The position numbers and the translations under genes were made by a program. Shown one piece after another: positions 2,422 to 17,713 of a stretch of 20,000 nt of DNA. How positions within the stretch are numbered: the first letter of the stretch is position 1; the number at the start of each line of letters is the position of its first letter. The stretch covers positions 231,805 through 251,804 of the forward strand of contig JBDOQK010000054.1 of the NCBI GenBank assembly GCA_040437565.1, given 5' to 3'. The DNA comes from Albugo candida (lineage: Eukaryota). The notes beneath the pieces were generated by a model. That model saw nothing but the letters and a program-made list of their open reading frames with translations. It made no database searches and was not told the DNA's origin.

Positions 2422-3264
2422 ATGGAGACATTAAGGAAATGTGAATCCGAATTGAATCAACATTTGATCGATTTAGAAAATTGCTTGCAGTCCAATGAGT
2501 TGGAATGCGATCTAGAATTTACGAATAAGGAAGAAAAATTACTTGAGCGTGAAATCAACAGATTAATCCGAAGCTGTGCTGATGCTACACTCAGATACGA
2601 AGAACAGTGCAAGGATAATAATATCAGAATGCAAGAAAGGGGATCGCAATCGCTCAAGAAATACGTTGTTCGAAGCAGAAAGGTACGGCCAGTAAATACA
2701 TTCTTTTCTTGGTGGCTCATCTTGCTATGGTAAGCTCTTAATGGAATATCGTTTGAAGTCAAATGCAGTCAAGCAAGAGGATACAAAGAAAAAGCTCCTA
2801 CATGTGCAAACGCCGAAAACGCAGAATGAGTACGTGAAGTGTCCCCATTTTATTTGTACAGAATTTCTGCTGACGAAGGAAGCGTAGTATGGAAAGGTCC
2901 GAGGATCCAATTAGGTTTTTGGCCTCATTGCATCGAACTCGACAAGTAATGTCGGATGAAATCCAACGCGTGACAAATGTGAGTAAATTGATGGATGATG
3001 GACGTGAAGCACTAGCAAGCTCGCATCAAGAGTACAGCAGCGTTAAGAATGAAATACAGGCAATTCGAAAACAACTCATGCATCTACAGGTAAAGTTGCT
3101 TTCATTGTATACAGTCAAGCATATCTTGATGGTACATCTAGTGGCAGACTAAGAAAGATCGACTGTGGATTGGGTCGGGTATACTCACACTCTTGACCAC
3201 ATTGATAGTTATCATCCATCAGCGTACGGGGATTCCAGTAATATCGGTATTGTTTAACCAATGA
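2422..3264 (+). CDS. SEC20: Sec20/BNIP1-type ER SNARE, 4 exons (2422-2682, 2735-2829, 2888-3089, 3142-3264)
   Basis: GT-AG introns of 52, 58 and 52 nt join the frames. The product has an N-terminal coiled coil, the Sec20-like segment SLHRTRQVMSDEIQRV...HQEYSSVKNEIQAIRKQL and a C-terminal anchor KDRLWIGSGILTLLTTLIVIIHQR. Stop TGA 3262-3264. Confidence 0.8.
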
Positions 3265-3494
3265 ATCAACTGATTCACTCGTAATCAAGTCGGCTAATTC
3301 TACTAAGGCTTTTGTTCTCTCTGATCATGATACACTTCTCTTTGTTGGCACCAAATACACCAAGGCTTTTTATCGTATATGGATGTATATTAAACCACCT
3401 AAATCGCATTGTCATAAAGAATCACGTCCGATATGTCGAGTGTTACTGTAGGACATTATAACTTCTATTTATTGATACAGCTATCGAGCTCAAA

Positions 3495-5000
3495 ATGTCG
3501 CTTCCCCGCTCTCCTTCCGCAGTCGAAGGTTTTCGTCCATTACGAGCAACGCTTTATTGTTGTTTTATCCCGTTTCATGTTTCTAGGTTTTCTAAAATTT
3601 GTGAATAGCTCACCTTCTCCATTTCATGCGGTGCAAGAAGCCATTGAAATTCTCAAATCGGCTGGATTTCAAGCAATCGCCGAAGATAAGTTACATCAAA
3701 ATGATCTGCAGCCAGGGGGCAAATATTACGTCACTCGAAACCGTTCAGCTATCGTACGGAAGTAAACTTTCGTAATCATTCTCGATGCAACTAATGCATT
3801 CTTGCCTCACCATAGATTGCATTTGCTATTGGCGGCAAGCATGAACGAAGAAATGGATTCAATATTATTGGAGCCCATACCGATAGCCCTTGTTTAAAGA
3901 TCAAGCCGATTTCAAACCTCGAGAGTGAAGGCTTTTTACAAGTTGGTGTAGAGTGTTATGGAGGCGGGTTATTCCACACATGGTTCGATCGGGACTTGGG
4001 CTTCGCTGGACGCGTTATTGTACGTGAATCAAAAAGATCCTTCAAAACAAGATTGGTGTGCGTGAATCGTCCGATTATGCGCATTCCTACACTTGCTATA
4101 CACTTGGACCGCGAAGCTGCAAATGGTATCAATTACAACAAAGAAACACATCTCCGTCCAATCTTGGCAACTGCTATTCGAGCTGAATTGGAGAAAATAG
4201 CGCATGGAGAAAAAAAAGCGAAAAAAGATGATGAAAGGCCAAAACACCACTCGATACTTCTCAATCTAATCGCCAAGGAGCTAAAAGTGAGGACAGAGGA
4301 AGTATGTGATTTTGAACTTTGTCTCTTTGATACACAGGGAGCAAATGTTGGTGGTCTGCTCAACGAGTTCATTTTTTCTGCACGGCTTGATAATTTGTGC
4401 TGTTCGTGGCTAGCGTTAAAATCACTCGTGTCATCAATAGATTCTCTGGATCAAGAAACAAACACTCGAATGATTGCTTTGTTCGACAATGAAGAAGTAG
4501 GCTCTCAGTCGAGAATGGGTGCAGGATCAGATTTTTTACAAACAGTCATGACCGCAGTAGCAGGTGAGCAGAATTGGTTTGAGGCGGCACGAAACTCGTT
4601 CTGCGTTTCAGCTGATATGGCTCATGGAGTCCACCCAAATTATTCACAAAAGCATGAGCACAATCATCGACCAGCTCTACACGCCGGACCTGTCATCAAG
4701 TACAATGCGAATCAGCGGTATGCGACTACATCTGAATCTGCATTTCTGATGAAAGAGCTTGCTCGTCGTCACGGTGTCAAGCTCCAGGAATTTGTGGTTC
4801 GACAGGACACAGGTTGTGGATCAACTATCGGTCCTATAATGTCCACTAATACTGGGATGCGAACAATTGATGTGGGTCTTGCACAATTGAGTATGCACAG
4901 TATTCGAGAAATGTGTGGAACAGATGATTTAGAGCTCGGACTGACTTGGTTCAAAGCGTTTTTCTCGGAATTCACTAATTTGAACAGTTACTTGAGTTGA
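3495..5000 (+). CDS. DNPEP: Aspartyl aminopeptidase (peptidase M18), 3 exons (3495-3528, 3587-3753, 3816-5000)
   Basis: Motifs FVNSSPSPFHAV, GAHTDSPCLK, WFDRDL, IPTLAIHL, RLDNL, DNEEVGS, SADMAHGVHPNY, CGSTIGP and LSMHSIRE. GT-AG introns of 58 and 62 nt keep the frame. Confidence 0.95.
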
Positions 5001-5622
5001 TTAGCGTAGTCAACTATTTGAAATATCACAACCTTTACATGAATGTATGGCTATCTCTTAGGCAAAGATTACACTCGAAATCATCATCGAAACAATCAGC
5101 AGCTAAAATGAGGATTTTCCTTAAAGCCATAAATCGCAGCGCCTTGTATTTAATCTATAGTGTGTGTTAAGCGGGATTGTTGACTACTCATTGTATTGTG
5201 ACTTTCATGGACTTTCAACTCTTTTATTGCTTGTACCGAAAGTACTATAATTTCTGTAAGTATTGTCAATCTGGAGGGGAAATTGGAGGATTAACTCATG
5301 ATAAATCCGCCTACACACTTTCAAGGCAGTCGTGTCATACTCTTAACATTGCCACCTGTTCAGTTTCGAATGGTTTTCTCGATCCTCGCATTCGAAATCA
5401 CACAGTCACTCGTGAGTTGCTATCCACAAGTAAAAAGTGAATCCTCATTATGACGTATCGTATTAAAAAGAAGTGTGAAATTCAGACCTAATCCCTCTAC
5501 TCCCATCGCAATTGAAACTACGGCACAAAATTTAGCTAATAATACTCTTCACGAATATCAACTTTGTTACCCACTACAGATCAATTATCGCTATAGTTTG
5601 TATATATTTTCCATTAGTGACT

Positions 5623-7122
5623 ATGACTCCCGAAGAGATTGAAGGAGGTTATAAATGCAGTTTGAAGATTGAAGAGTACAGAATCCGTAAGAAAGCAGAG
5701 TATAAAATCTTCGTTCAGCTATCATTCTTTTCTTCACGGTCACACGGGCATGGCTCAACAAGTTGGCACATTTGGCGCTCTTTTGGCAAATTCAGAAAAC
5801 TAGATGAGCTTTTACGCAAACGGAATCCGTCACACATGAAAGGGATACAATTTCCACCGCTGTATCGTCGTCGTTTGATTATACGATCGCATTTGAGGGA
5901 AGATTTTTTAGAAATGCGTATGCGAGAGCTCGATACGTACTTACGTATGGTTATTCAGAGTCCCTCAGTAGTTGCATTTCATATGAGTTCGCCTCAAAGT
6001 CAGACACTCAAGACCTTTATTGGATTTGTGAGTGGCTTTGGCATGAACGCACAGTATGAACCCTCGAACGTTCGTCCGTCAATGTCTCAACTAACAGCTT
6101 GCCCCACTATGGCATACACACAAACAGCTAGTGTTGTAGCAGACGACGATGATGATTTTCGATCGGTCGCCTCATCTACATATTCTTCTATTTCGTCTAG
6201 TTTTGGTAACTCAGCTGTATATCGGTGGTCCGGAACGGGCTTTCAAGGGTATAGTACACATCCTGAACGTATAATCAACGCCAGAAGGAATTACCATGTT
6301 TCAAGTTATTCTCATCCGTCCAGCGCCAGGTCCAGTTTTGGTCGAAACGATACGTTATCACTATCATCAAACCGAAACTTTAGTAGAACGGATGCTTACG
6401 GGGAATGTGTGGGGGAAATGACGCACGAATCAGAAGTGCAAAGAGCGAGAATGGAACGGGAATTATATAAAGTTGAATTGGTAGGTGTCGGAATGCCCCC
6501 AGATGGATCGTGTTTGCTGCATTGCATAGTCTATGAAATGTACCCATTGCAGTGCTTGAAAGATTATCCTACATCGATGACAATTGTGAATGTTGGAGCT
6601 GCTGACGGTATGGCGCCACGACGCATTGCAGCAGCCAGGTATCTCCGGGTAAAACTTATGGAATACGGTCTGAAGCACTTGAAACAACTAGCGAGTTTCT
6701 TGCATCAGAAAGAAGATGAATTGAGATTGCGATATGAGGCTTTCAGAGATATACCCGATGAACAGGCTACGACTGCCGAATTATATGCCGCTTCAAGCAT
6801 GTTCAACATCGAGATTGTGCTGATCAGTAATAACGAAAGCTTTAAAATAGAACCCGTGACCCCAATAGCAGGTCTTCCATCTTCGCGGGAAGGTACGAGA
6901 AGAACGGTCACATTTGGATACATGACTCCAAGTGACGGATTGGGTGGTCACTACATTTGCACTCGGCCCAGGCCGTATCGATTTGAAGAGTCAAATAATC
7001 CTTTCGCTGGTGGAAAGTATTGTGGTTCCATTGCAATCGGTCCCCCACGAAAAAGCTCAAACATTCGATGTGTGCCAAACAAAACATTGAATTTCGGTCA
7101 TGTCAATGAGCAGCCGGTTTGA
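5623..7122 (+). CDS. PX-domain protein with a C-terminal OTU-like cysteine protease domain
   Basis: Single ORF, first ATG at 5623. N-terminal PX-like pattern WHIWRSFGKFRKLDELL...FPP...LEMRMRELDTYL, then a Ser-rich linker, then OTU-like motifs MPPDGSCLLHC, ELYAASSMFNIEIVLIS and GGHY. Confidence 0.75.
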   Translation: MTPEEIEGGYKCSLKIEEYRIRKKAEYKIFVQLSFFSSRSHGHGSTSWHIWRSFGKFRKLDELLRKRNPSHMKGIQFPPLYRRRLIIRSHLREDFLEMRMRELDTYLRMVIQSPSVVAFHMSSPQSQTLKTFIGFVSGFGMNAQYEPSNVRPSMSQLTACPTMAYTQTASVVADDDDDFRSVASSTYSSISSSFGNSAVYRWSGTGFQGYSTHPERIINARRNYHVSSYSHPSSARSSFGRNDTLSLSSNRNFSRTDAYGECVGEMTHESEVQRARMERELYKVELVGVGMPPDGSCLLHCIVYEMYPLQCLKDYPTSMTIVNVGAADGMAPRRIAAARYLRVKLMEYGLKHLKQLASFLHQKEDELRLRYEAFRDIPDEQATTAELYAASSMFNIEIVLISNNESFKIEPVTPIAGLPSSREGTRRTVTFGYMTPSDGLGGHYICTRPRPYRFEESNNPFAGGKYCGSIAIGPPRKSSNIRCVPNKTLNFGHVNEQPV

Positions 7123-7465
7123 AATCAATCGAGTCGACATGGCACGGCGATTACCAATGTTGAAAGAGGCAGAGGTCAAGTACTTACGACTTTGTCAAAT
7201 AGCTTTATGTACTTGACCTAGTAGGTGCCGTCGGCGGATGAAAAAGCAGTTATGCCAATTTCTTGCCATTTGCTTATCAGAAAGAAAGAGGGCATCTTCT
7301 CTGTGTCGCGACACACATTGAGCCATACATTTGGATTGGATTTTTCTTATTTAAAGCTCGATAGGCCTGCTCGATGTAAGGATCAGAAATATAAAGAAGA
7401 ATGATTTCCCTCGATCTAGGCGCTTTGATATTGCTTCTTATATTTGTGGTAAAATTCCAGTAATA

Positions 7466-8943
7466 TCATTCTTCCCTCGGACAAGCTCGGTACGCCTGAA
7501 TGGGGCTACTATCGCAATCAAATCGAATAGCTTCATTTGCCGAAACCAAAAATACTTTGCCTTGTTGAATGGAGAATTCTGCAGATTCGCCACGCAATCG
7601 TCCGGTACCTTGGAGAATCAACAGAATGCTTGCGGCCTTGCGAATGGGAACATCATACGTTGAATGAGATGGTATGTCATATCGCTCGACCTGGAACTCA
7701 GGTACAATGGACGTATACAGCCGATACTTATCATCGATTTGTTGGCCTTGTTGTACTGTTGGCAGCCCAGTGCTTCATTATAAAAGTAAGAACGCATGAA
7801 ACATACATCAAGGAGACTTACGAATAGGTGAGTAATTCGCAGAGTGTTACTTTATCGACCAGTTTGCTAGTCAATGCGGCCCGTATCACATTATCGGAAC
7901 ATGCCATGCATTCAACGCAGTCTCCAGACAAGTACGCATGAGGCTCATTGGAAGCCAAAAATATAGCTTCGCCTGGTTTCAGCTCCAAATAATTCAGTAA
8001 AAATGGACAAAAGCAACCGATATCATTCGGAAAGGCTGCATGCAAACGCAATACTAATTTCTCCACCATGCTATGTTGAGACACAGAGACTGCATTGAGA
8101 CGTCCGACAATTTTGTTGACTTGAGCCTCAATGATTTGAGTATCCACATTCATGAAAGCCTCAAAGAAAATTTTCAGCGCTTCTTGATCCTTTTTTGCAA
8201 CCAATTGCTGGACGACTAAAATCAGTGAATAAGGGTAAAGCATTACCGAGCACGTAAATAAGATACGCACTTTGTGGTTGTACAAGCTCCCGGAATTCCA
8301 CTACTGTTTCCAAAAATGTACTGATCTCACTAATGTCTCGAAACTGGCATCTGCAAACAAGTCAATCAATGTCTGAGATTGGTAAGACTGCATGTATAAT
8401 CATGGACAATACAGGGCTTCAAATTGACTTAACGCGATAGCCATTTCGGGTTTATGATTGGCGTCTTTGTAGATATCTGGATGCAACGCATGTAACCTTT
8501 GTGCAGATATTTTGTCTGGGTGAATTTGTATCGAGAGCGGTTTTCCAATCGATAGAACTTTGAAAAGAAAAGGAAGATTTTGATTCGTAGAATTCCCTAA
8601 ATGACTTGGATGTTGCTGAAGCCACTCAAATAATGAGACACAAGTCTTCTCTTCAGTGTGAGCAAAGGATGGACCATTTGGGTGGGTTCCCATCCTAAAA
8701 CCATATCATAAAGACGTTTTGTTTTATTTGGGGGGTATAAGAGTGTCACAAACCATAATTCTGCATATGGAAGTTCCGCATCCAGTTCAAAGCTCGGTTC
8801 ATGAACCTTGAAGATACACTCAATACGGAATGTTGCCAATCACAGGTGGAACGCGTGATACGTACTTTTAATTGTGCCACTTTACTGGTATTCCCACGTT
8901 TTCCCCACTTATACGACTGAACAGCACATTCCAGTTCCAGCAT
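7466..8943 (-). CDS. MPI: Mannose-6-phosphate isomerase type I, 6 exons (8943-8866, 8806-8754, 8694-8413, 8350-8271, 8215-7822, 7772-7466)
   Basis: Motifs YKWGK, PYAELWMGTHPNGPS, LPFLFKVLSIGKPLSIQIHP, YKDANHKPEMAIAL and NEPHAYLSGDCVECMACSDNVIRA. Five GT-AG introns of 49-62 nt with consistent phases. The last exon ends ...AYRACPREE*. Confidence 0.95.
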
Positions 8944-9853
8944 TTGACAGTCGGATTGAGTATTTATGAGCCAATCCGGCGACTTAAGCAATCGAAAACT
9001 ATCAAAATTTTCTACAAAGGCAGCTTTTAGAGTCGCGTGATATTTCGCGTTTTGCGATACAGTACCTTTTGCTGCTGACACAACACCAAAATATTACGAG
9101 AATTATCGGGTTTGGTACCGATAACGATCTTAGTTCGGTTATAAACTCATTTTTGATTATAAAACGTCGCGCGGCAGCGCAAACTACGAACACAAGACAC
9201 AAGCGATTAACGGAAGCGGGCATTGCGTGTCTTTAGGATACCCCGCATTTATGTATATATCACAAACTAAGTATATTATAGTAATAATTAGAAGAATTAC
9301 ATCAAATTGCGTCGACTCGTTGTTCATTAAACTTGAGTAATTGGATCGCAAGTAGCTAAGCCTTTTTATGATGCGGTCCTAGAATACTGAACCGTTCATG
9401 ATTTCGAATTTTTAGCAGTTGTCAGCAATCAAGTACAGAGAGAACAAATACTTTTTTGCTGCGCACACAAATACTCGTGTCATCAAGTGTCAGGATTGAC
9501 TCGCATCAATAAACTCTGTATTTTCCATTCAATGCTCACGCGCAATCAAGTTAAGCGTAGATAAGAAAAATATTACTCACAGAATGATAGCTCTTGATGG
9601 TTGCGATTGTGATATCACTGCCATTTGGATCCCGAGAGTACTCACTCAGTCCGTTTGACATGGAAATTGGTATCTTACACTCGCCAGCAATGTTAAAGTC
9701 GAGATTATATATCGTTTGCTACAGGTTATCTAACAATAGAGAGCGCTTGTTGCTCTGTAAATATATGGTGCGAAATAACTGTTCTTCCATTCATTTAAGC
9801 GCAACTGTCGATTGCAGATTCAAGGCGAGCAGTAAGTATCTTGATTCTTGTAA

Positions 9854-12194
9854 ATGATGCGACCAAGTCCAGGATTTGAAAGGCTAAGCGATTCTTCAGA
9901 GACGAGTGAAACGCATGAAAACTTGAGGCTCAACACGACCCCAGCTCCTGACATCACAGTTCAAACCGAATGTCGCGATCAGTCTTCGTACATCAGCTCT
10001 TTCACACCCGCTCAAGTGCGCCAACGATTCATTCAACTTCATGTTTTCGATCGTCAATATAAAGAACCTTCCTGGATGCATCCAAACATTGGTGGTGGGG
10101 CAGTCTTCTTGGAAGCGCCAACAGAAGAGGATCGAGCATACAGTGAGGAGAAGATGCATTCCACGAAGACTCAACTGAAAGAATGGCCAAGTACAGCAAT
10201 TGGAGGCAATGACATTTTGTCAAGTGTACTGTTCACTGCAGGCTTGACCGTAGCGAAATCTGGTTATTTGGCTCCCGTCGTGCAAGTGGTTGTAATCGTA
10301 GTGATTTATTGCTTCAGATGGATTTTTCAGGAAGTGGTGAGCACTATTCCATTGAATGGTGGAAGTTATGCTGCATTACTCAATGCTAGCTCTAAAAAGG
10401 TTGCTGCAGCGGCGGCCATTTTCAGCATTTTGTCGTATTTGGCAACCGGTGTTGTTTGTGCCGTGTCTGCATCCAACTATCTCAATCATTTGGTGCACAT
10501 TCCTGTCGTAACGTGCACAATTGGTCTTCTCTTTTCTTTTGCACTTCTGTGTGTCATTGGAATTTCGGAAAGTGCTTCTGTGGCACTTGTTATTTTCCTA
10601 CTGCAAGTATGCACGCTTACTGTTCTATGTATTGCTTGTTTTATCTATGGTACGATGCACCCGTCCATTTTTATGCACAATTACAACGTTCCGCTCCCGA
10701 ATGAATCCTTATGGGGACATATGATCACTGGAAGTGTAGAAAATGCGCTTTTCGCCGGATTTGCACCGGCACTTTTGAGTGTTACCGGATTTGAAAGTAC
10801 AGCTCAATTTGTGGAGGAGCAAGCACCTGGCGTTTTCCCAAAAACGTTGCGTAACATGTGGATCATTTCCAGCTTTTTCAATCTAGCATTTTCATTCTTG
10901 TCGCTCGCAGTGGCTCCCATCGAAACGATTCTACTTGAGAGCGACGTTTTACTTGCTTATATAGCTAACGTCTCAGCAGGTCGCTGGCTCGAAGTTGTTG
11001 TATCGATTCAGGCTTTTATTGTACTCGCAGGTGCAGTACTTACATCGTACGTGGGTATCGTTGGCCTTGTGAGACAACTTGCAAGTGATCGTTTATTACC
11101 TCGTTTCCTGCTGCACAAAAATGCTTGGAGGGGTACACATCATTACGTGATATTTGGCTACTTTGGTATCGCCTCGAGCTTGACGCTCTTACTTGATGGT
11201 GAAATCACGGTTTTGGCCGGTATTTTTTCATTCGCTTTTCTAGGAGTCATGATGTCTTTTGTATTGGCGTGTGTGGTGCTGAAGGTTAACCGTGAGCACA
11301 TGGTTCGTGCCCACACAACTTCGTGGACTAATGTACTGTTCTGTGGAGTTATGATTATGATTGGATTGATTTCTAATGCAGCGTCTGACCCGTATGCTTT
11401 GGGGTACGTTTCACTNNNNNNNNNNNNNNNNNNNNNNNNNNNNNNNNNNNNNNNNNNNNNNNNNNNNNNNNNNNNNNNNNNNNNNNNNNNNNNNNNNNNN
11501 NNNNNNNNNNNNNNNTATGATTATGATTGGATTGATTTCTAATGCAGCGTCTGACCCGTATGCTTTGGGGTACGTTTCACTGTATTATGGAGCTTTTTTC
11601 AGTATTATATGGCTCATGCTGGATCGCATAACGATTCTTAAGTGTCTGCTGTATGTTTCCAGACAATGGAAAGTGTTTCTTCTCTCACGTCAAAATGCTC
11701 GATCGCGGCCAAATCCTTCTCAGCGTGGGCTTCCAAGTGCACATTATCGGACTGAACAACAATCGCGTTTTGTGATTGGAAGTGTCATAATAGCAAAAGC
11801 AATTGAAAGCATCAAAAAGACACCAATTATATTATTTTGCAAGAGTTCCAGTCTTCCGAAAATCAATCAAGCTATTTCCTATGTGATCCGCAATGAGCAG
11901 ACGTATTGTCTTCGATTGGTTCATATAACGTCCAGCGATTTGTATGAAAGTGATACAAACGACGATAAATTGACTTATGATCCCAAGTTCGACGATACTG
12001 TGTGCTTGTTTGATCACATATATCCGTCTATGAAAATCGACTTTGTGTCTATTCGTGGTCGATTCGAGCCGATACTTGTGCAGTGGATTGGCGAAAACAT
12101 GAATATACCAATCAATCTGATGTTGATGCGTCAGCCTAGGAGTGATGATAGTTATCGCGTTGCTGCCTTGGGTGTTCGTATCATACTCGATTAG
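9854..12194 (+). CDS. APC-superfamily membrane transporter with a C-terminal cytosolic domain (KimA/YdaO-like motifs), interrupted by an assembly gap
   Basis: About 12 hydrophobic segments with motifs GNDILSSVLF, PLNGGSY, VTGFESTAQ and LASDRLLP. Collapsing the 66-nt duplicate (11350-11415 = 11516-11581) gives one continuous frame to TAG 12192-12194. Confidence 0.85.
11350..11581. repeat. 66-nt exact duplication flanking the 100-N gap at 11416-11515 (assembly overlap)
   Basis: 11350-11415 is identical to 11516-11581. Confidence 0.9.
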
Positions 12195-12506
12195 ANNNNN
12201 NNNNNNNNNNNNNNNNNNNNNNNNNNNNNNNNNNNNNNNNNNNNNNNNNNNNNNNNNNNNNNNNNNNNNNNNNNNNNNNNNNNNNNNNNNNNNNNAAGTT
12301 CGACGATACTGTGTGCTTGTTTGATCACATATATCCGTCTATGAAAATCGACTTTGTGTCTATTCGTGGTCGATTCGAGCCGATACTTGTGCAGTGGATT
12401 GGCGAAAACATGAATATACCAATCAATCTGATGTTGATGCGTCAGCCTAGGAGTGATGATAGTTATCGCGTTGCTGCCTTGGGTGTTCGTATCATACTCG
12501 ATTAGA
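11985..12506. repeat. 211-nt duplication flanking the 100-N gap at 12196-12295 (assembly overlap)
   Basis: 11985-12195 matches 12296-12506, repeating the transporter's 3' end and stop codon. Confidence 0.9.
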
Positions 12507-12604: not shown

Positions 12605-13236
12605 CTTTATACAAATTTCGACTACGATTATGAAGTGGTGTACTATCACCATTTTCTCTGTTGTTTCACGGTCATTTTACGGAAATAATGAGTCTTTTGC
12701 GAAGACCATTGAACCTGAAAGCTCTTCCATAGTGAGACACGATGCAGAGAAGCCTTCAACTTCTATGGTCTCTAGTTTAAGCAATTCACATCGATCAACT
12801 GCAAATATCGATCATACTATAGACGTGTTCCCTGTACCAACTAAACAAACTCCACCAGTGTCAGATACAGNNNNNNNNNNNNNNNNNNNNNNNNNNNNNN
12901 NNNNNNNNNNNNNNNNNNNNNNNNNNNNNNNNNNNNNNNNNNNNNNNNNNNNNNNNNNNNNNNNNNNNNNCTTTATACAAATTTCGACTATGATTATAAA
13001 ATGGTTTACTATCACCTTTTTCTCTGTTGTTTCACGGTCATTTTATGGAAATAATGAGTCCTTTGCGAAGACCATTGAACCTGAAAGCTCTTCCATAGTG
13101 AGACACGATGCAGAGAAGCCTTCAACTTCTATGGTCTCTAGTTTAAGCAATTCACATCGATCAACTGCAAATATCGATCATACTATAGACGTGTTCCCTG
13201 TACCAACTAAACAAACTCCACCAGTGTCAGATACAG
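12605..13236. repeat. 266-nt near-identical duplication flanking the 100-N gap at 12871-12970 (probably two haplotypes)
   Basis: 12605-12870 versus 12971-13236, offset 366, with 7 substitutions. Confidence 0.9.
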
Positions 13237-15204
13237 AGTCAAATAATGTTATCAATCACGTTGAAACACAGCTTCAGATATTACAAATTTTAGAGACTAA
13301 CGTTGCTACAAGTATCGAGAAAATGCAAAGTGATGTTTTACTACAAGTGCAAGACCAGCAATCGCTCCACGAAGCAACAAAACTCTTTCGAGAGCTGCAC
13401 ATTGTACAGGTACCCCCTTCTATTCCATCTTGACAAGCTTTATTTCTATAAATTCCTTTTTATTGAAGAACAATTTGCAAAAGCTTGCAACAGGACTGAA
13501 CGAAACTCTATTTGATATGCAAGTGGTAGAAAAAAACAGCGAGAAAAAATCTCAACAATTACAAAGTGTATTGGATCATCAAAGAGAAGAACAGGAAGAC
13601 GCTTTCATTGAAGAAAATGGTATCAAAGTGATCGACTACGAAACAGGCCAACTCCAAAATATCACCGGTTTATCAAGCACCAAGTCAAAAAAACTGAAAG
13701 ATGTTGATCCAGCGGTATGTTCGCAAAAAGATTGTGAAATAAGCTCATAATGAATGTGTAGGTCCTTCACTATGACTTTGAGCTTTTGGGGCAAATCGCG
13801 GTGCTACTTGGAATCTCGGCGATCGGTGGCATTTGTGCCACATATTTCAACATCCCGCCTCATACTGGTTATCTGCTTGGCGGCGTGCTGGTGGGTCCTT
13901 CTTGCTTGGGAATCGTACATAACTACAAAGAAGTTGAAACCATTTCCTTATTTGGTTCCATCTTCTTGCTTTTCGGACATGGGACAGGATATATCCTACA
14001 AAGGCCACGGGTCTTGAAAATGTATCTGATCGGAAGTTCAGCTTACGTGGTTGCTACTATTGCAACTGTTGCGATTTTGATGTCTTTTATCGGATGGACG
14101 GAGTCAATTTTGCAAGGAATTATCATCGGAGTGGCAGTGTGCTTTACTACGACAGCTCCAATCTACGAGAGATTGCGAGCCAATGAGGTTCATGATACTT
14201 CCTTCGGACGAGTAAGATCTACAGACTCATATCCGCGGAGTGTGCCCTAAGAATTGTATTCGTATTAGACTATCACGTCAATCATCGCCTTGCAAGATGC
14301 ACTAATGAGTTTTGCACTTGGTGCACCCGAGTGGTTCTCAGTCAAATCCTTCAGCTTGGTCAGCATAGCGGCAATACGGTCCATTTTTTCGTATGGAATC
14401 GTTGTATCCGTGTCCTACATGCTGCACACTCGTGTTCTTCCACCTTTAATGCAATTTTTGGTTGATATGGAGCGCTTGCATCATTCACCTTTGGTATTGC
14501 TTGGAGTCGTTAGTGTATGTCTCTTTATGGCCTTGCTCACTGAGTTTCTCGGACTCTCTTTAGAATGTGGAGCTTTTCTAGCTGGTCTCACCTTTATGGA
14601 GAACACAGCTCGAAGCACAAATATGCAAAAGGCGATTGCATCCATTCGTGTCATCGAAAATCTATTTGGCAGCATGTTTTTCGCATGTGTTGGGATGATA
14701 CTAAATCCGAGCTTTTTGATCCGTAATGCATGCGAAATAATCAGTTTGGTTACTTTGATTGTGGGAATAAAAACAGTTTGCACCACTGCGGTCATGCGAT
14801 TCTACAAAGTTTCCTTCAGAAAAGCATTGATTGCAGGCGTCAGTCTTTGCCAGATTGGAGAATTATCACTAATCTTCATGATCAAAGCGCACTCTTCCCA
14901 TCTCGTCACACGTCGGTTTTATTTACTTTTCATTGCAGCCATTGCAGTATTCTTGGGATGTTCATCTTTATTCGAGCGACAAATTGTGCTGGCTAGAAAA
15001 AAAAAATTGTTCCGACTTCCAGCCACAGATGCGAGGAACCAAAAAGTACCAGTTCTACCAAGAAAATCAATCGATTCCAAGCATGAAAAGAACGATAAGG
15101 CCACCTCGCCTTCAGTCATCAAGCGAGATGATACTGTGGAGAGTAGAAGACCCAAGAGTTGTATGCACGCTTCCAGTGTCAAGCCTCAGAATACCTTCAG
15201 ATAA
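12990..15204 (+). CDS. K+/H+ antiporter of the CPA2 family (KEA4-6/TMCO3-like), 4 exons (12990-13409, 13469-13714, 13762-14211, 14269-15204). An alternative 5' copy starts at 12630.
   Basis: Short hydrophobic N-terminus, a coiled-coil region, then TGYLLGGVLVGP, VETISLFGSIFLLF, LQD, GLSLECGAFLAG, FFACVGM and LCQIGELS. GT-AG introns of 59, 47 and 57 nt, all phase 0. Confidence 0.88.
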
Positions 15205-17509
15205 TGCCGATGGGTTTTGGGTCAAAGTGGTCTTATCTGTTCCATCATTGTCTCGGATTTTTGTTGCTGACTCGGAAGCAATTTTCGAACATTCTTCTGG
15301 AACCTGGTAGGCAACTTCCAATTCATGCTCTTCTTGATTCTGGTCGACTTGCGTCTGCGAAAACTCGACTCTATGCTTCTCTCGGCATAATCTATCGATC
15401 AAGTAGGAAAAAGTGTCTCGTGTGTCTTGGTCTGTAAATTCTAAATGAATGGCATTTTGTGAAGATTTTAAAGATAATAAGCATGAAGTAGAAGGCTTCG
15501 CGTTACTGAGGTATTTTCTTCTCTCTGTTGGCGAGCACAACAACCTGTTTTGTGTAATTGTATCTCGACCAGACGTTTCTACGTCAAGTGATGGGTTCCC
15601 AATCTGAATTTGAGTGATGTTTACCAGTTCTACGGAACTCTGAGGCCGTTCGGGAGCTCGAGTTTGATCTTGTGCTGCCACTGGGTCATTATTTTGGACA
15701 AAGTCACCCGCCAGAGCCAACGGGATATCATTAGTCCACCAGATGTGCTTCCTAGCGTGTGTGATTGTTTCTCTGATGCTTAGGGATGAATGCAGTGATA
15801 AAGAGGAGCCGGACCAAGTAGATTTTTCTCTCGAAGGAGGGCAGGGATCCTCGACAAGGTTGACGATCTTTGATCTGGGTTTTCTCTGAATCTGGAATCC
15901 TTCCAAATCATTCAAACGACGTAGAGCTGGATGGAGATGGGAGAACGGATGCAGCTTGCTTCCTTCATGCGGTTTGCTATAGATGGGCTTACTCAAGTTT
16001 TCATTACCCAAAGTGGATGGTAGACGTCGGAAAAAGCTGCTTAAGGCGCGCCTACTACACAATCTAAACGCTTCAAATTTCGGAGTCTTCCTTACCCAGC
16101 GCAAGGTGCTCCCATCTGCAGATAAGAATATCTTTGTGCGGAAGCTCTCTCTATCTTCATGTTTTATGGTGTTGATTCCATATCCCTTCTCTGGGCCATA
16201 TTCAGTAGCACGTAGTTTCTTCTCCAACACACTTGCAAGTTTCTCTTTTCTCTTTTGATTCTGAATGGACCGGCTTTCGAGAAGCTTGGCCTTGCTCTTG
16301 TCCAGCATTTCTTTTCCGTTAACAATCCAAGGATGCGAGACTAAATCACTCGTTTTAGGTCGCTTTGTTGGATCGACCTGTAACATTTCAGCCAGCTATA
16401 TATACAGTATGAACAGCGTGTCGGTCTCACTTCATGTTGATGTCACTTACCAGTTCCCGGATTCTCGGATCGATGTGAATCCAGTCCTTACTCGGGAAAC
16501 GTAATCCAAAGTTATGGGCTCGAAGTTGCGACAATTTCATGGGAAAAGGAGGGTACCCACTGAGTATGATGTAGATCACCACGCCAAGACTAAAAATGTC
16601 CACCTCAATGCCATAAAGCTTTCCATCCAAAATCTCAGGGGCTGCATAACCCGGTGTGCCACAAGAATCAGCCGACAGCTCTCCAACTGTCTTAAGACGT
16701 TTTGCGAATCCGAAATCACATAATTTGACGCCACATTCTCTATGTATAAGAACATTCTCAGGTTTTATATCGCGATGAATGATTGCGTTGGTGTGGCAAT
16801 AATGGAGCGCATGAACAAGTCCAGCGGCAATTTTCTGGGCTTCTATAGGTGTGACTTTGCCCCGTTTCACAACACGATCAAATAGATCACCATGCTCCAC
16901 AAGTTCCATCACCATGTAGCATTTTGTATCATCTTCAATGACGTCATAAAGTTTCATTATGTGTTCATGATCTACATATCGAAGTACCTCGATTTCGTGT
17001 CGTAAGGCTAAGCGATCAATTGGCGATAAGCTGAGTTTATCTACAATCTTACAAGCAAACGATTCGCCACTCATTCGATGTATTACTCTTTTTACAGTTG
17101 AGTAAGAGCCGGCTCCGATATGTTTGATGATTGAATACTCTTGATGGAAACTCAATAAAGATTTCTCATCTTGTCTGTGCATTGGTGGAGCGCTGGAGCA
17201 ACGTTGAATCAATGACATCTTAGAATCCACGATCTTCGCTACCGCTAAATTGTCGATTCTTTCATCATTTGCTGGATTTTGGCACCTTTCAGCCATCACG
17301 TCAACTTTTCCTTCATAGTTGTTATCACTGATTCCAGACGACGATTGATTTTCACTCTTGCCGTTTTTCCACTTGAGGAGATGCCGTAAGCGGAAGCGAG
17401 AGCTACTACTTGAGACACCTCGACGGGCTGTGTGATCACTGTTGCACTGATTTCGTCTAGTGGGGCAGAATTGGTCCGGTTCACCACTTATACATCGTGT
17501 AAATACCAT
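15112..17509 (-). CDS. CaMK-group Ser/Thr protein kinase with a C-terminal split PH-like domain, 2 exons (17509-16451, 16395-15112)
   Basis: Motifs IGAGSYSTV, ACKIVDK, HRDIKPEN, DFG, CGTPGYAAPE and DIFSLG. A 55-nt GTAAGT...TAG intron joins to LAEMLQVDPTKRP...HPW, completing subdomain XI. Confidence 0.9.
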
Positions 17510-17713
17510 TTTGCTTGTGCTAAAGAATTAATGAAACCAAATGGAAGTTATGACTATTTAAATACTCTGTGGCATTTTAATTCAAAAATATCTGGCTAAT
17601 CGAGCAGTTTCAAATATCGCACGAGATCCGGTTCCGAGTGTTGTGTACACCACGAAAATCGTCAATTTGTTTGTTGTAACGTGGCTCAGATTAAAGTGCG
17701 ACGAGCTTCATAT

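What the first reader, a model, noticed from the sequence alone, without database searches (positions are those of the whole stretch)
5623..7122. PX + OTU-like fusion: candidate membrane-targeted deubiquitinase
Seen: one intronless ORF carries a PX-like domain (~5650-5990), a Ser-rich linker and an OTU-like domain. The D-G-S-C loop has Asp at 6502 and Cys at 6511, the 'EL.A.S..FNI.I.L' helix-strand is present, and GGHY has His at 6949. Known: PX domains bind phosphoinositides on endosomes, and OTU proteases use a DGxC...HY Cys-His dyad to cleave ubiquitin chains. Inference: this could be a sorting-nexin-like deubiquitinase that couples lipid recognition to ubiquitin editing. I do not recognise PX-OTU among characterised OTU families, so it may be an uncharacterised lineage-specific architecture.
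Basis: partly seen in the sequence, partly recalled or inferred. Interest (0 to 1): 0.75.

Follow-up and report, generated by a model that had tools for sequence, protein, structure and literature searches.

The report
Oomycete PX–OTU deubiquitinase with dead twin
A white-rust oomycete gene encodes a PX domain joined to a divergent OTU-type protease with its catalytic cysteine and histidine intact; the design is shared across oomycetes, is labelled only 'PX protein' in databases, has a catalytically dead sister gene, and probably removes ubiquitin from trafficking proteins, though not by binding the usual endosomal lipid.

Summary
Window 5623-7122 (+) is one intronless 499-aa ORF: PX domain, Ser-rich linker, OTU domain. 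Pfam OTU is below cut-off, but the predicted fold matches Otu2, OTUD3 and OTUD1 (Z 14-15; first non-OTU 4.1), and Cys297/His443 fall on their published catalytic residues. Both residues are kept in 45 of 45 intact homologues; all 29 named hits are oomycetes, none annotated OTU. A published P. parasitica cysteine-protease inventory omits the orthologue.

Two corrections. (1) The PX lacks the Arg needed for PtdIns3P binding (46 of 47) and the secondary-site His/Tyr, so 'endosomal PI3P sorting nexin' is unlikely. (2) The OTU lacks the usual third catalytic residue (His+2 is Ile) and the Trp-Gly-Gly loop; Glu278 in the S1' helix is a candidate A20/Cezanne-style substitute.

New here: a paralogous family (PX + OTU-like + PAH-like), also in this genome, has lost the Cys (0 of 46), His (1 of 46) and Glu278 (0 of 46) but keeps core residues, i.e. 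a pseudo-deubiquitinase.

Best reading: an active cytosolic deubiquitinase docked by an atypical PX (about 0.55). Activity, substrate and location are untested; ubiquitin binding could not be modelled. New variant of a known kind; interest 0.55.

The parts
5623..7122 (+). Intronless ORF, 499 aa, PX-linker-OTU (P0001); no signal peptide, TM segment or RxLR
   Evidence: hydropathy maximum 1.17 over 19 residues, no RxLR in the first 80 residues
5638..6057 (+). PX domain with long beta-strands and a conserved C-terminal extension (residues about 6-145)
   Evidence: Pfam PX E 4e-8; block pLDDT mostly above 80; Z 13.9, rmsd 1.4 over 106 residues to SGK3/CISK PX
5776..5784 (+). R52-S53-F54: RRY motif lacking the 3-phosphate-binding Arg
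   Evidence: aligns to RRY of SGK3; Arg at this site in 1 of 47
5803..5805 (+). Asp61, at the helix-1 position where secondary-site PX domains have His/Tyr
   Evidence: aligned to Tyr of SGK3 (site assignment is my inference from PMC6449406); Asp in 47 of 47
6058..6414 (+). Ser-rich, predicted disordered linker (residues 146-264)
   Evidence: 22% Ser; pLDDT under 50 for most of it
6142..6168 (+). Acidic-aromatic linker motif DDDDDFRSV (candidate short docking motif)
   Evidence: 39 of 47; absent from the four named Saprolegniales sequences; function unknown
6220..6243 (+). Near-invariant linker motif YRWSGTGF (candidate short docking motif)
   Evidence: 45 of 47; mean conservation 0.91 against 0.64 and 0.49 in the flanks; not confidently folded
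6415..6972 (+). OTU domain, OTUD/Otu2-like fold (residues 265-450)
   Evidence: AF2 pLDDT 81.4, pTM 0.78; Foldseek; Z 15.3 Otu2, 14.5 OTUD3, 14.4 OTUD1
6421..6471 (+). N-terminal (S1') helix of the OTU, carrying Arg274 and Glu278 (6454-6456; candidate third catalytic or proximal-ubiquitin residue)
   Evidence: helix 267-283 overlays Otu2 alpha5, 150-165; Glu278 45 of 45 against 0 of 46 in the dead paralogue; the role is inference
6502..6513 (+). Cys loop D294-G-S-C297 (oxyanion loop and nucleophile)
   Evidence: registers with Otu2 C178, OTUD1 C320, OTUD3 C76; 46 of 47, the exception an apparent mis-call
6535..6621 (+). Family-specific conserved insertion after the Cys helix (residues about 305-333)
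   Evidence: many 45-of-45 positions, not kept in the paralogue; lower pLDDT, 50-70
6763..6771 (+). Q381-A-T in place of the W-G-G loop
   Evidence: three other OTU loci of this genome show WGGxxE[LI]; Q 44 of 45, A 45 of 45, T 45 of 45
6946..6957 (+). G442-H443-Y444-I445: catalytic His, with Ile at the usual Asn/Asp position
   Evidence: registers with Otu2 H300/N302 and OTUD1 H431; H and I 45 of 45
6973..7119 (+). Low-confidence C-terminal tail with a partly conserved NxFxxGx[YF] motif
   Evidence: 40 of 47; pLDDT under 50

Best explanation
A conserved, cytosolic oomycete deubiquitinase of the OTU class. SHOWN (computationally): PX fold plus OTU fold in one chain; Cys297 and His443 on the catalytic positions; both under constraint that the dead paralogue has lost. 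INFERRED: Cys297 attacks a ubiquitin isopeptide bond, with His443 as base and the D294-G-S loop as oxyanion hole. Because His+2 is Ile, the His is polarised from outside the strand, most likely by Glu278 on the S1' helix (as Asp/Glu before the Cys does in A20/Cezanne), or the enzyme works as a dyad. The PX domain positions the enzyme at a membrane or trafficking complex, through its basic patch (anionic lipids other than PtdIns3P) or through a protein partner; the two linker motifs recruit partners or cargo. Net effect: local removal or editing of ubiquitin on trafficking cargo or machinery. The paralogue (PX + dead OTU + PAH-like) arose by duplication and is a pseudo-enzyme, probably a binder or scaffold.
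For: All 11 Foldseek hits at E<=0.001 are OTU deubiquitinases. Against 48,161 chains the best rows are Otu2 (Z 15.3, rmsd 3.5, 152 aligned), OTUD3 (14.5, 2.8, 136), OTUD1 (14.4, 3.4, 145); first non-OTU row Z 4.1. Counting in from the ends of seven structural alignments puts C297 on C178/C320/C76 and H443 on H300/H431/H182; C178, H300, N302, C320, H431 and C76 are the published catalytic residues (OTUD3 H182 is recalled). ESM Atlas: 28 of 30 hits carry PF02338, best 0.94. D294, C297, H443 45 of 45 in intact homologues; C 0 of 46 and H 1 of 46 in the paralogue, which keeps core residues such as M277, L281, C301, E386, L387, G442, Y444. Loss of the His+2 acidic residue can leave OTUs active, and A20-type OTUs use a residue before the Cys (PMC7396840; PMC11776055). 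PX has 15 Lys/Arg against 5 Asp/Glu in residues 50-101, with R65, R67, K73, R99 invariant. Among the nearest other PX proteins are ones with WH2 (12 of 131) and the WASH subunit CCDC53 (8 of 131), a trafficking context. Covered by spliced-RNA-bearing runs; 6 of 8 SNPs in the ORF are silent, 2 conservative.
Against: No activity, substrate or localisation data. Pfam OTU is below cut-off and sequence searches of the PDB find no OTU; identity to solved OTUs is only 14-19%. His+2 is Ile and the Trp that holds the ubiquitin GlyGly tail in other OTUs (PMC7396840) is Gln. Glu278 is only one of several positions lost in the paralogue (E305, D328, E380 also), and its distance to His443 could not be measured. 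The PX lacks both the canonical Arg and the secondary-site His/Tyr, which in human PX domains predicts no lipid binding at all (PMC6449406). The two domains have no confident mutual packing (pTM 0.45).
Confidence: 0.55

Rival explanations
1. One reading: a sorting-nexin-like deubiquitinase recruited to endosomes by canonical PtdIns3P binding.
For: True PX fold; helix-2 Arg99 invariant, aromatic F54 kept, Arg82/83 near the PPK-loop Lys position; in P. sojae another PX protein needs its PX for vesicle localisation (PMC8233823).
Against: Arg of the Arg-Tyr pair absent in 46 of 47, and in 42 of 42 paralogues where the motif was found, against present in 75 of 90 other PX hits. PMC6449406: all four side chains are needed for PtdIns3P binding.
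Confidence: 0.13
2. An active OTU-fold cysteine protease whose substrate is not ubiquitin: a ubiquitin-like modifier (NEDD8, SUMO, ATG8) or another peptide bond.
For: Invariant dyad but rebuilt substrate channel: QAT for WGG, Ile at His+2, a conserved insertion of about 28 residues. Viral OTUs accept ISG15 as well (PMC7396840 passage).
Against: Closest folds are ubiquitin-specific OTUDs; the Trp position varies among active human OTUs (recalled, not tested here).
Confidence: 0.17
3. A non-catalytic or barely active ubiquitin binder or scaffold, with Cys and His kept for binding, folding or redox sensing.
For: Third residue absent; some OTUs bind ubiquitin without cutting the model substrate (BurkOTU); the family has already produced one dead lineage.
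Against: D294, G295, C297, H443 are 45 of 45 across sequences down to 41% identity, and are the residues that the dead paralogue discarded; pseudo-OTUs such as FAM105A are described as lacking activity and lose the Cys (recalled).
Confidence: 0.12
4. Artefact: chance motifs or a mis-joined gene.
For: Sub-threshold Pfam score; assembly gaps elsewhere in the window.
Against: Both domains are in one chain in dozens of independently assembled oomycete genomes; run X7 spans 3000-9200 in one contig; fold and register match.
Confidence: 0.01

Closest known systems
OTUD-clade deubiquitinases: yeast Otu2 (7pl7, 8c83), human OTUD1 (4bop), OTUD3 (4bou), OTUD5/DUBA (3tmp)
   Same: Fold, size, N-terminal S1' helix, DGxC loop, Cys...His-aromatic order and register.
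   Different: 14-19% identity; Ile instead of Asn/Asp at His+2; QAT instead of WGG; conserved insertion after the Cys helix; fused to a PX domain.
A20-subfamily OTUs (A20, Cezanne/OTUD7B, Cezanne-2, TRABID, VCPIP1)
   Same: No acidic residue at His+2; third residue supplied from before the Cys (PMC7396840, PMC11776055). The C-x-x-H after the nucleophile and a hydrophobic His+2 resemble these enzymes (recalled).
   Different: They have a much larger OTU domain and match less well (Z 8.9-10.1); their acidic residue lies further from the Cys (37 residues in Cezanne-2, against 19 for Glu278); no PX.
Sorting nexins / PX-only proteins: SGK3/CISK, SNX16, SNX11, SNX3, SNX25
   Same: PX fold (Z 12-14), helix-2 Arg.
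   Different: No Arg of the Arg-Tyr pair, Asp at the secondary His/Tyr site, no BAR/PDZ domain; carries its own protease. In animals the PX-OTU link is between two proteins, SNX27 and OTULIN, and is non-catalytic (PMC7823608).
OTULIN / FAM105A (OTULINL) enzyme and pseudo-enzyme pair
   Same: An active OTU with an inactive paralogue (PMC10318531).
   Different: Different OTU clade (Z 9.7 to FAM105A); here both carry a PX domain and the dead copy adds a PAH-like domain.

Membership tests
OTU cysteine protease family (PF02338) | OTU fold | tested here: met
   Foldseek 11 of 11 hits at E<=0.001 are OTUs; Z 15.3, rmsd 3.5, 152 aligned to Otu2; first non-OTU Z 4.1
OTU cysteine protease family (PF02338) | Pfam gathering score reached | tested here: not met
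   18.1 and 21.5 bits against 23.3; 32 of 47 homologues match at E<=0.1, best E 0.00027
OTU cysteine protease family (PF02338) | Catalytic Cys in a DGxC loop, in register | tested here: met
   with 82, 86, 87
OTU cysteine protease family (PF02338) | Catalytic His followed by an aromatic residue, in register | tested here: met
   H443-Y444 45 of 45; register H300/H431
OTU cysteine protease family (PF02338) | Hydrolyses ubiquitin isopeptide bonds | not testable with these tools
   needs a bench assay
OTUD clade (Otu2, OTUD1, OTUD3, OTUD5) | Asp/Asn/Glu two residues after the His | tested here: not met
   Ile445 in 45 of 45, on Otu2 Asn302
OTUD clade (Otu2, OTUD1, OTUD3, OTUD5) | Aromatic (Trp) GlyGly-holding loop | tested here: not met
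   Q-A-T here, WGG in three other OTU loci of the genome
OTUD clade (Otu2, OTUD1, OTUD3, OTUD5) | N-terminal S1' helix | tested here: met
   helix 267-283 overlays Otu2 150-165
A20 subfamily of OTUs | Acidic third residue N-terminal to the Cys and next to the His | tested here: inconclusive
   Glu278 has the expected conservation pattern but the distance to His443 could not be measured
A20 subfamily of OTUs | Large A20-type OTU domain as the closest fold | tested here: not met
   OTUD folds score Z 14-15, A20-type 8.9-10.1
PX domain (PF00787) | Pfam score and three-strand, three-helix fold | tested here: met
   (47 of 47)
PtdIns3P-binding PX domains (groups II and IV of PMC6449406) | Arg-Tyr pair at the beta3/alpha1 junction | tested here: not met
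   Ser/Thr/Gly/Pro in 46 of 47
PtdIns3P-binding PX domains (groups II and IV of PMC6449406) | Lys of the PPK loop | tested here: inconclusive
   FPPLYRRR: no Lys, Arg82/83 close by; alignments are gapped here
PtdIns3P-binding PX domains (groups II and IV of PMC6449406) | Arg in helix alpha2 | tested here: met
   R99 47 of 47
Secondary-site PX domains (groups III and IV of PMC6449406) | His/Tyr in helix alpha1 | tested here: not met
   Asp61 in 47 of 47 opposite the SGK3 Tyr
Secondary-site PX domains (groups III and IV of PMC6449406) | Basic cluster at the end of alpha1 and start of the PPK loop | tested here: met
   R65, R67, K73 47 of 47; 15 K/R against 5 D/E in 50-101
Secreted oomycete effector (RxLR type) | Signal peptide and RxLR motif | tested here: not met
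   no hydrophobic N-terminus, no RxLR in the first 80 residues (simple hydropathy scan, not SignalP)

The most novel reading that the evidence does not exclude
Oomycetes have their own enzyme/pseudo-enzyme module for ubiquitin editing in trafficking. The active partner is an OTU of a hybrid kind: an OTUD-type scaffold that takes its third catalytic residue from the S1' helix (Glu278), so that binding of the proximal ubiquitin and activation of the dyad are coupled and give an unusual linkage specificity. Its PX is a protein-docking rather than lipid-binding module, and the dead paralogue docks at the same site and gates or opposes it.
Probability: 0.2. Interest if true: 0.78.

Novelty: new variant of a known kind. 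Interest (0 to 1): 0.55.

Why it matters
It adds an unrecognised deubiquitinase subfamily, hidden below annotation thresholds, to a group of major crop and fish pathogens whose ubiquitin and trafficking biology is little studied. It joins in one chain two modules that animals link only as separate proteins (SNX27 and OTULIN). Its active site departs from both known OTU triad layouts, and a natural dead paralogue shows which residues go with catalysis, so the mechanism is directly testable. An oomycete-restricted cysteine protease with an unusual pocket would also be a plausible selective inhibitor target if it proves essential. It remains a new arrangement of two known domains, with no function shown.

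Tried and rejected
Sequence searches of the PDB found PX domains only, no OTU, with the protein, the 47-row profile and a 6-row OTU-only profile: the OTU is too divergent for these. The genome-wide Pfam OTU search listed 5 matches and missed this gene. An OTU-only search for proteins of 112-359 aa gave 3 hits of 179 candidates, all fragments of the same family; longer fused forms were not searched with that tool, but the HMMER search of representatives has no length limit. A viral origin was considered: best viral fold matches are 10-19% identical with TM-scores no higher than the cellular ones, so no support. None of 131 other PX hits has a Pfam OTU match at E<=0.01; one (P0094) scored 15 bits with my family OTU profile and was not followed up. 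Modelling the OTU with the genome's own ubiquitin was not available, so ubiquitin binding is untested. Cys-His and Glu-His distances could not be measured because model coordinates are not returned; register was inferred from the ends of alignment ranges, assuming no gaps between end and catalytic residue. No run was on record as RNA. DDDDDFRSV resembles an ATG8-interacting motif but has Arg after the aromatic residue (pattern recalled); left as a lead. The careful PX tree did not finish; the quick tree is quoted. Seidl et al. 2011 on oomycete domain combinations is not held, so I did not see it; supplements of papers other than PMC7060141 and PMC2837644 were not searched and might list the gene. 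Earlier findings of this scan by sequence and by words: none.

Full report
1. The observation. The frame at window 5536-7122 (+) is open; its first ATG at 5623 gives 499 aa and homologues start at the same Met. Asp294, Cys297 and His443 lie at 6502, 6511 and 6949 as stated. Pfam gives PX at 42-115 over its cut-off and OTU at 292-444 below it (18.1 bits against 23.3). Only 41 of 20,000 shuffles give the DGxC...HY pair at OTU-like spacing. The window is the end of contig C54 of a 36.6-Mb genome. A member of the protein's own 90% cluster is named Albugo candida, CCI46764.1, so this is a white-rust oomycete. Contigs of runs X1, X2, X4 (one study; RNA by the tool's guess) skip GT..AG introns in both neighbouring genes but cross this ORF without a joint, while X7 spans the stretch unspliced: the gene is intronless and probably transcribed. 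Of 8 SNPs in the ORF, 6 are silent and 2 conservative.

2. Distribution. The word-based search gave 50 proteins among 6,365 candidates. All 29 of the other 49 that carry an organism name are oomycetes: Albugo (85%), Phytophthora, downy mildews and Pythium-like taxa (mostly 50-59%), Saprolegniales (40-42%). Precomputed annotation shows PX or nothing; none shows OTU. A profile search of 1.84 billion representatives (174 hits at E<=0.001, 150 listed) added fragments, a paralogous family and PX-only matches. One copy was found in this genome.

3. The OTU domain is real. AlphaFold2 folds residues 265-455 with pLDDT 81.4 and pTM 0.78. All 11 Foldseek hits at E<=0.001 are OTU deubiquitinases. Against 48,161 representative chains the best are Otu2 (Z 15.3, rmsd 3.5, 152 aligned), OTUD3 (14.5) and OTUD1 (14.4); the first non-OTU row has Z 4.1. 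Counting in from the ends of seven alignment ranges places Cys297 on Otu2 C178, OTUD1 C320 and OTUD3 C76, His443 on H300, H431 and H182, and Ile445 on Otu2 N302. Those are the published catalytic residues (passages of PMC10175282, PMC5995870, PMC10566363; H182 recalled). This assumes no gaps near the ends; I could not measure distances. The ESM Atlas agrees: 28 of 30 hits carry PF02338, best score 0.94. In the 47-row alignment (50 hits less P0041-43, left out as probably partial or mis-called) Cys is kept in 46 and His in 45; the exceptions P0040 and P0050 run into unrelated sequence and look mis-called.

4. It is not a standard OTUD. His+2, usually Asp/Asn/Glu (PMC7396840, passages), is Ile in 45 of 45 intact sequences. 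The Trp-Gly-Gly loop seen in three other OTU loci of this genome is Gln-Ala-Thr. A conserved insertion of about 28 residues follows the Cys helix. A20-type OTUs also lack the His+2 residue and use an acidic residue before the Cys; in Cezanne-2 that Glu bridges the His through water and also binds the proximal ubiquitin (PMC11776055, abstract and passages). Here Glu278 sits in the helix that overlays Otu2's S1' helix, which is thought to set linkage or substrate specificity. That it plays the same part is inference; Glu305, Asp328 and Glu380 share its conservation pattern.

5. A dead twin. The profile search exposed a second family of mostly 570-860 aa: PX, an OTU-like region and a PAH-like domain (PF23202, mostly near or below cut-off). 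It occurs in this genome at G000:C26:331499-333568 (BLASTP E 2e-13 for the PX part and 8e-10 for the OTU part) and across Phytophthora, downy mildews, Pythium (44 hits among 8,000 candidates) and Aphanomyces. In 46 paralogues the Cys is Thr or Ser (0 of 46 Cys), His is kept in 1 of 46 and Glu278 in 0 of 46, whereas Met277 (43), Leu281 (45), Cys301 (45), Glu386 (45), Leu387 (46), Gly442 (46) and Tyr444 (45) are kept. The Atlas weakly reads this region as OTU (0.90, a lead only); I did not fold it. In a quick tree of 65 PX domains (16 active, 9 paralogue, the 40 best-scoring of 127 others) the two families are sisters with SH-aLRT 82, modest support for a duplication after the fusion. The contrast argues that the dyad in our gene is kept for catalysis.

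6. The PX domain. The fold is clear (Z 13.9, rmsd 1.4 to SGK3), with a conserved extension to about residue 145. PMC6449406 (passages) finds four side chains necessary for PtdIns3P binding. The Arg of the Arg-Tyr pair is Ser, Thr, Gly or Pro in 46 of 47, against Arg in 75 of the 90 other PX hits where the motif was found (131 examined). The helix-2 Arg is kept; the PPK-loop Lys is unclear. The helix-1 His/Tyr of the secondary site is Asp in 47 of 47, but the basic cluster beside it is invariant. So canonical PtdIns3P targeting is unlikely; binding of other anionic lipids or of a protein remains open. The genome has 57 PX matches, and related PX proteins carry WH2, PDZ, PAH-like and CCDC53 domains; none of 131 has a Pfam OTU. 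The disordered linker holds two conserved short motifs, YRWSGTGF (45 of 47) and DDDDDFRSV (39 of 47). There is no signal peptide, TM segment or RxLR by simple scans, so it is not a secreted effector.

7. Mechanism. Most likely a cytosolic deubiquitinase: Cys297/His443 cut ubiquitin isopeptides, the atypical PX and linker motifs hold the enzyme at a membrane or trafficking complex, and the paralogue is a non-catalytic binder. Folds, register and conservation are shown; activity, substrate, third residue, localisation and any link between the two proteins are inferred. I put about 0.7 on ubiquitin as substrate of an active enzyme and about 0.55 on the whole reading. Rivals: another modifier as substrate (0.17), canonical PtdIns3P endosomal enzyme (0.13), non-catalytic binder (0.12).

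8. Novelty. Ten literature searches, six aimed at this architecture (listings only), found no paper on it; the phrases PX-OTU, OTU-PX and similar occur in 0 papers. The PX-architecture survey PMC2837644 has no 'OTU' in its text or 4 held supplements, and does not mention oomycetes. The P. parasitica inventory of 80 cysteine proteases lists 7 OTU-like genes, and the orthologue PPTG_15727 is not among its 80 identifiers (PMC7060141, passages and supplements). The library lacks most subscription papers, and InterPro-type resources could not be queried. The nearest known link between a PX and an OTU is the SNX27-OTULIN complex (PMC7823608, passages). Verdict: real; an OTU-fold protein that fails two OTUD-clade features; a new variant of a known kind; interest 0.55.

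Noticed in passing
G000:C26:331499-333568 (L016): Paralogue: PX + catalytically dead OTU + PAH-like domain, conserved across oomycetes (P. infestans PITG_10485, P. sojae PHYSODRAFT_488429), annotated only as PX; the Aphanomyces copy keeps the His but not the Cys.
   Followed up: partly
G000 genome-wide; proteins P0063-P0196: 57 PX matches in a 36.6-Mb genome; related PX proteins are fused to WH2 (12 of 131), PDZ (11), PAH-like (10) and the WASH subunit CCDC53 (8), an apparently oomycete-rich set of PX architectures.
   Followed up: no
window 11417-11516, 12197-12296, 12872-12971: Three 100-N scaffold gaps, each flanked by a repeated stretch of the same gene; most likely assembly artefacts that break an amino-acid permease gene and the next gene.
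   Followed up: partly
window about 3000-5000 (+): Spliced aspartyl aminopeptidase (M18) gene directly upstream; three GT..AG introns seen in contigs. No functional link to the finding.
   Followed up: no
window about 7400-9100 (-): Phosphomannose isomerase gene, convergent with the PX-OTU gene, six introns seen; contigs of X1 and X2 run through both genes, suggesting overlapping 3' ends.
   Followed up: no
window 15112-17527 (-): Ser/Thr kinase (Pfam Pkinase, CAMK-like by eye) followed by a 427-aa frame with no Pfam match, probably its C-terminal part; it overlaps the end of a Na/H-exchanger-type frame on the + strand.
   Followed up: no
P0094: A PX protein that scores 15 bits with the family's OTU profile; possibly a further divergent member.
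   Followed up: no
window 6130-6180: In the full-length model, residues about 170-185 (the acidic DDDDDF motif) align with the C-terminal part of several PX structures, as if folding back on the basic PX; pLDDT about 55 or less, so only a lead for autoinhibition.
   Followed up: no
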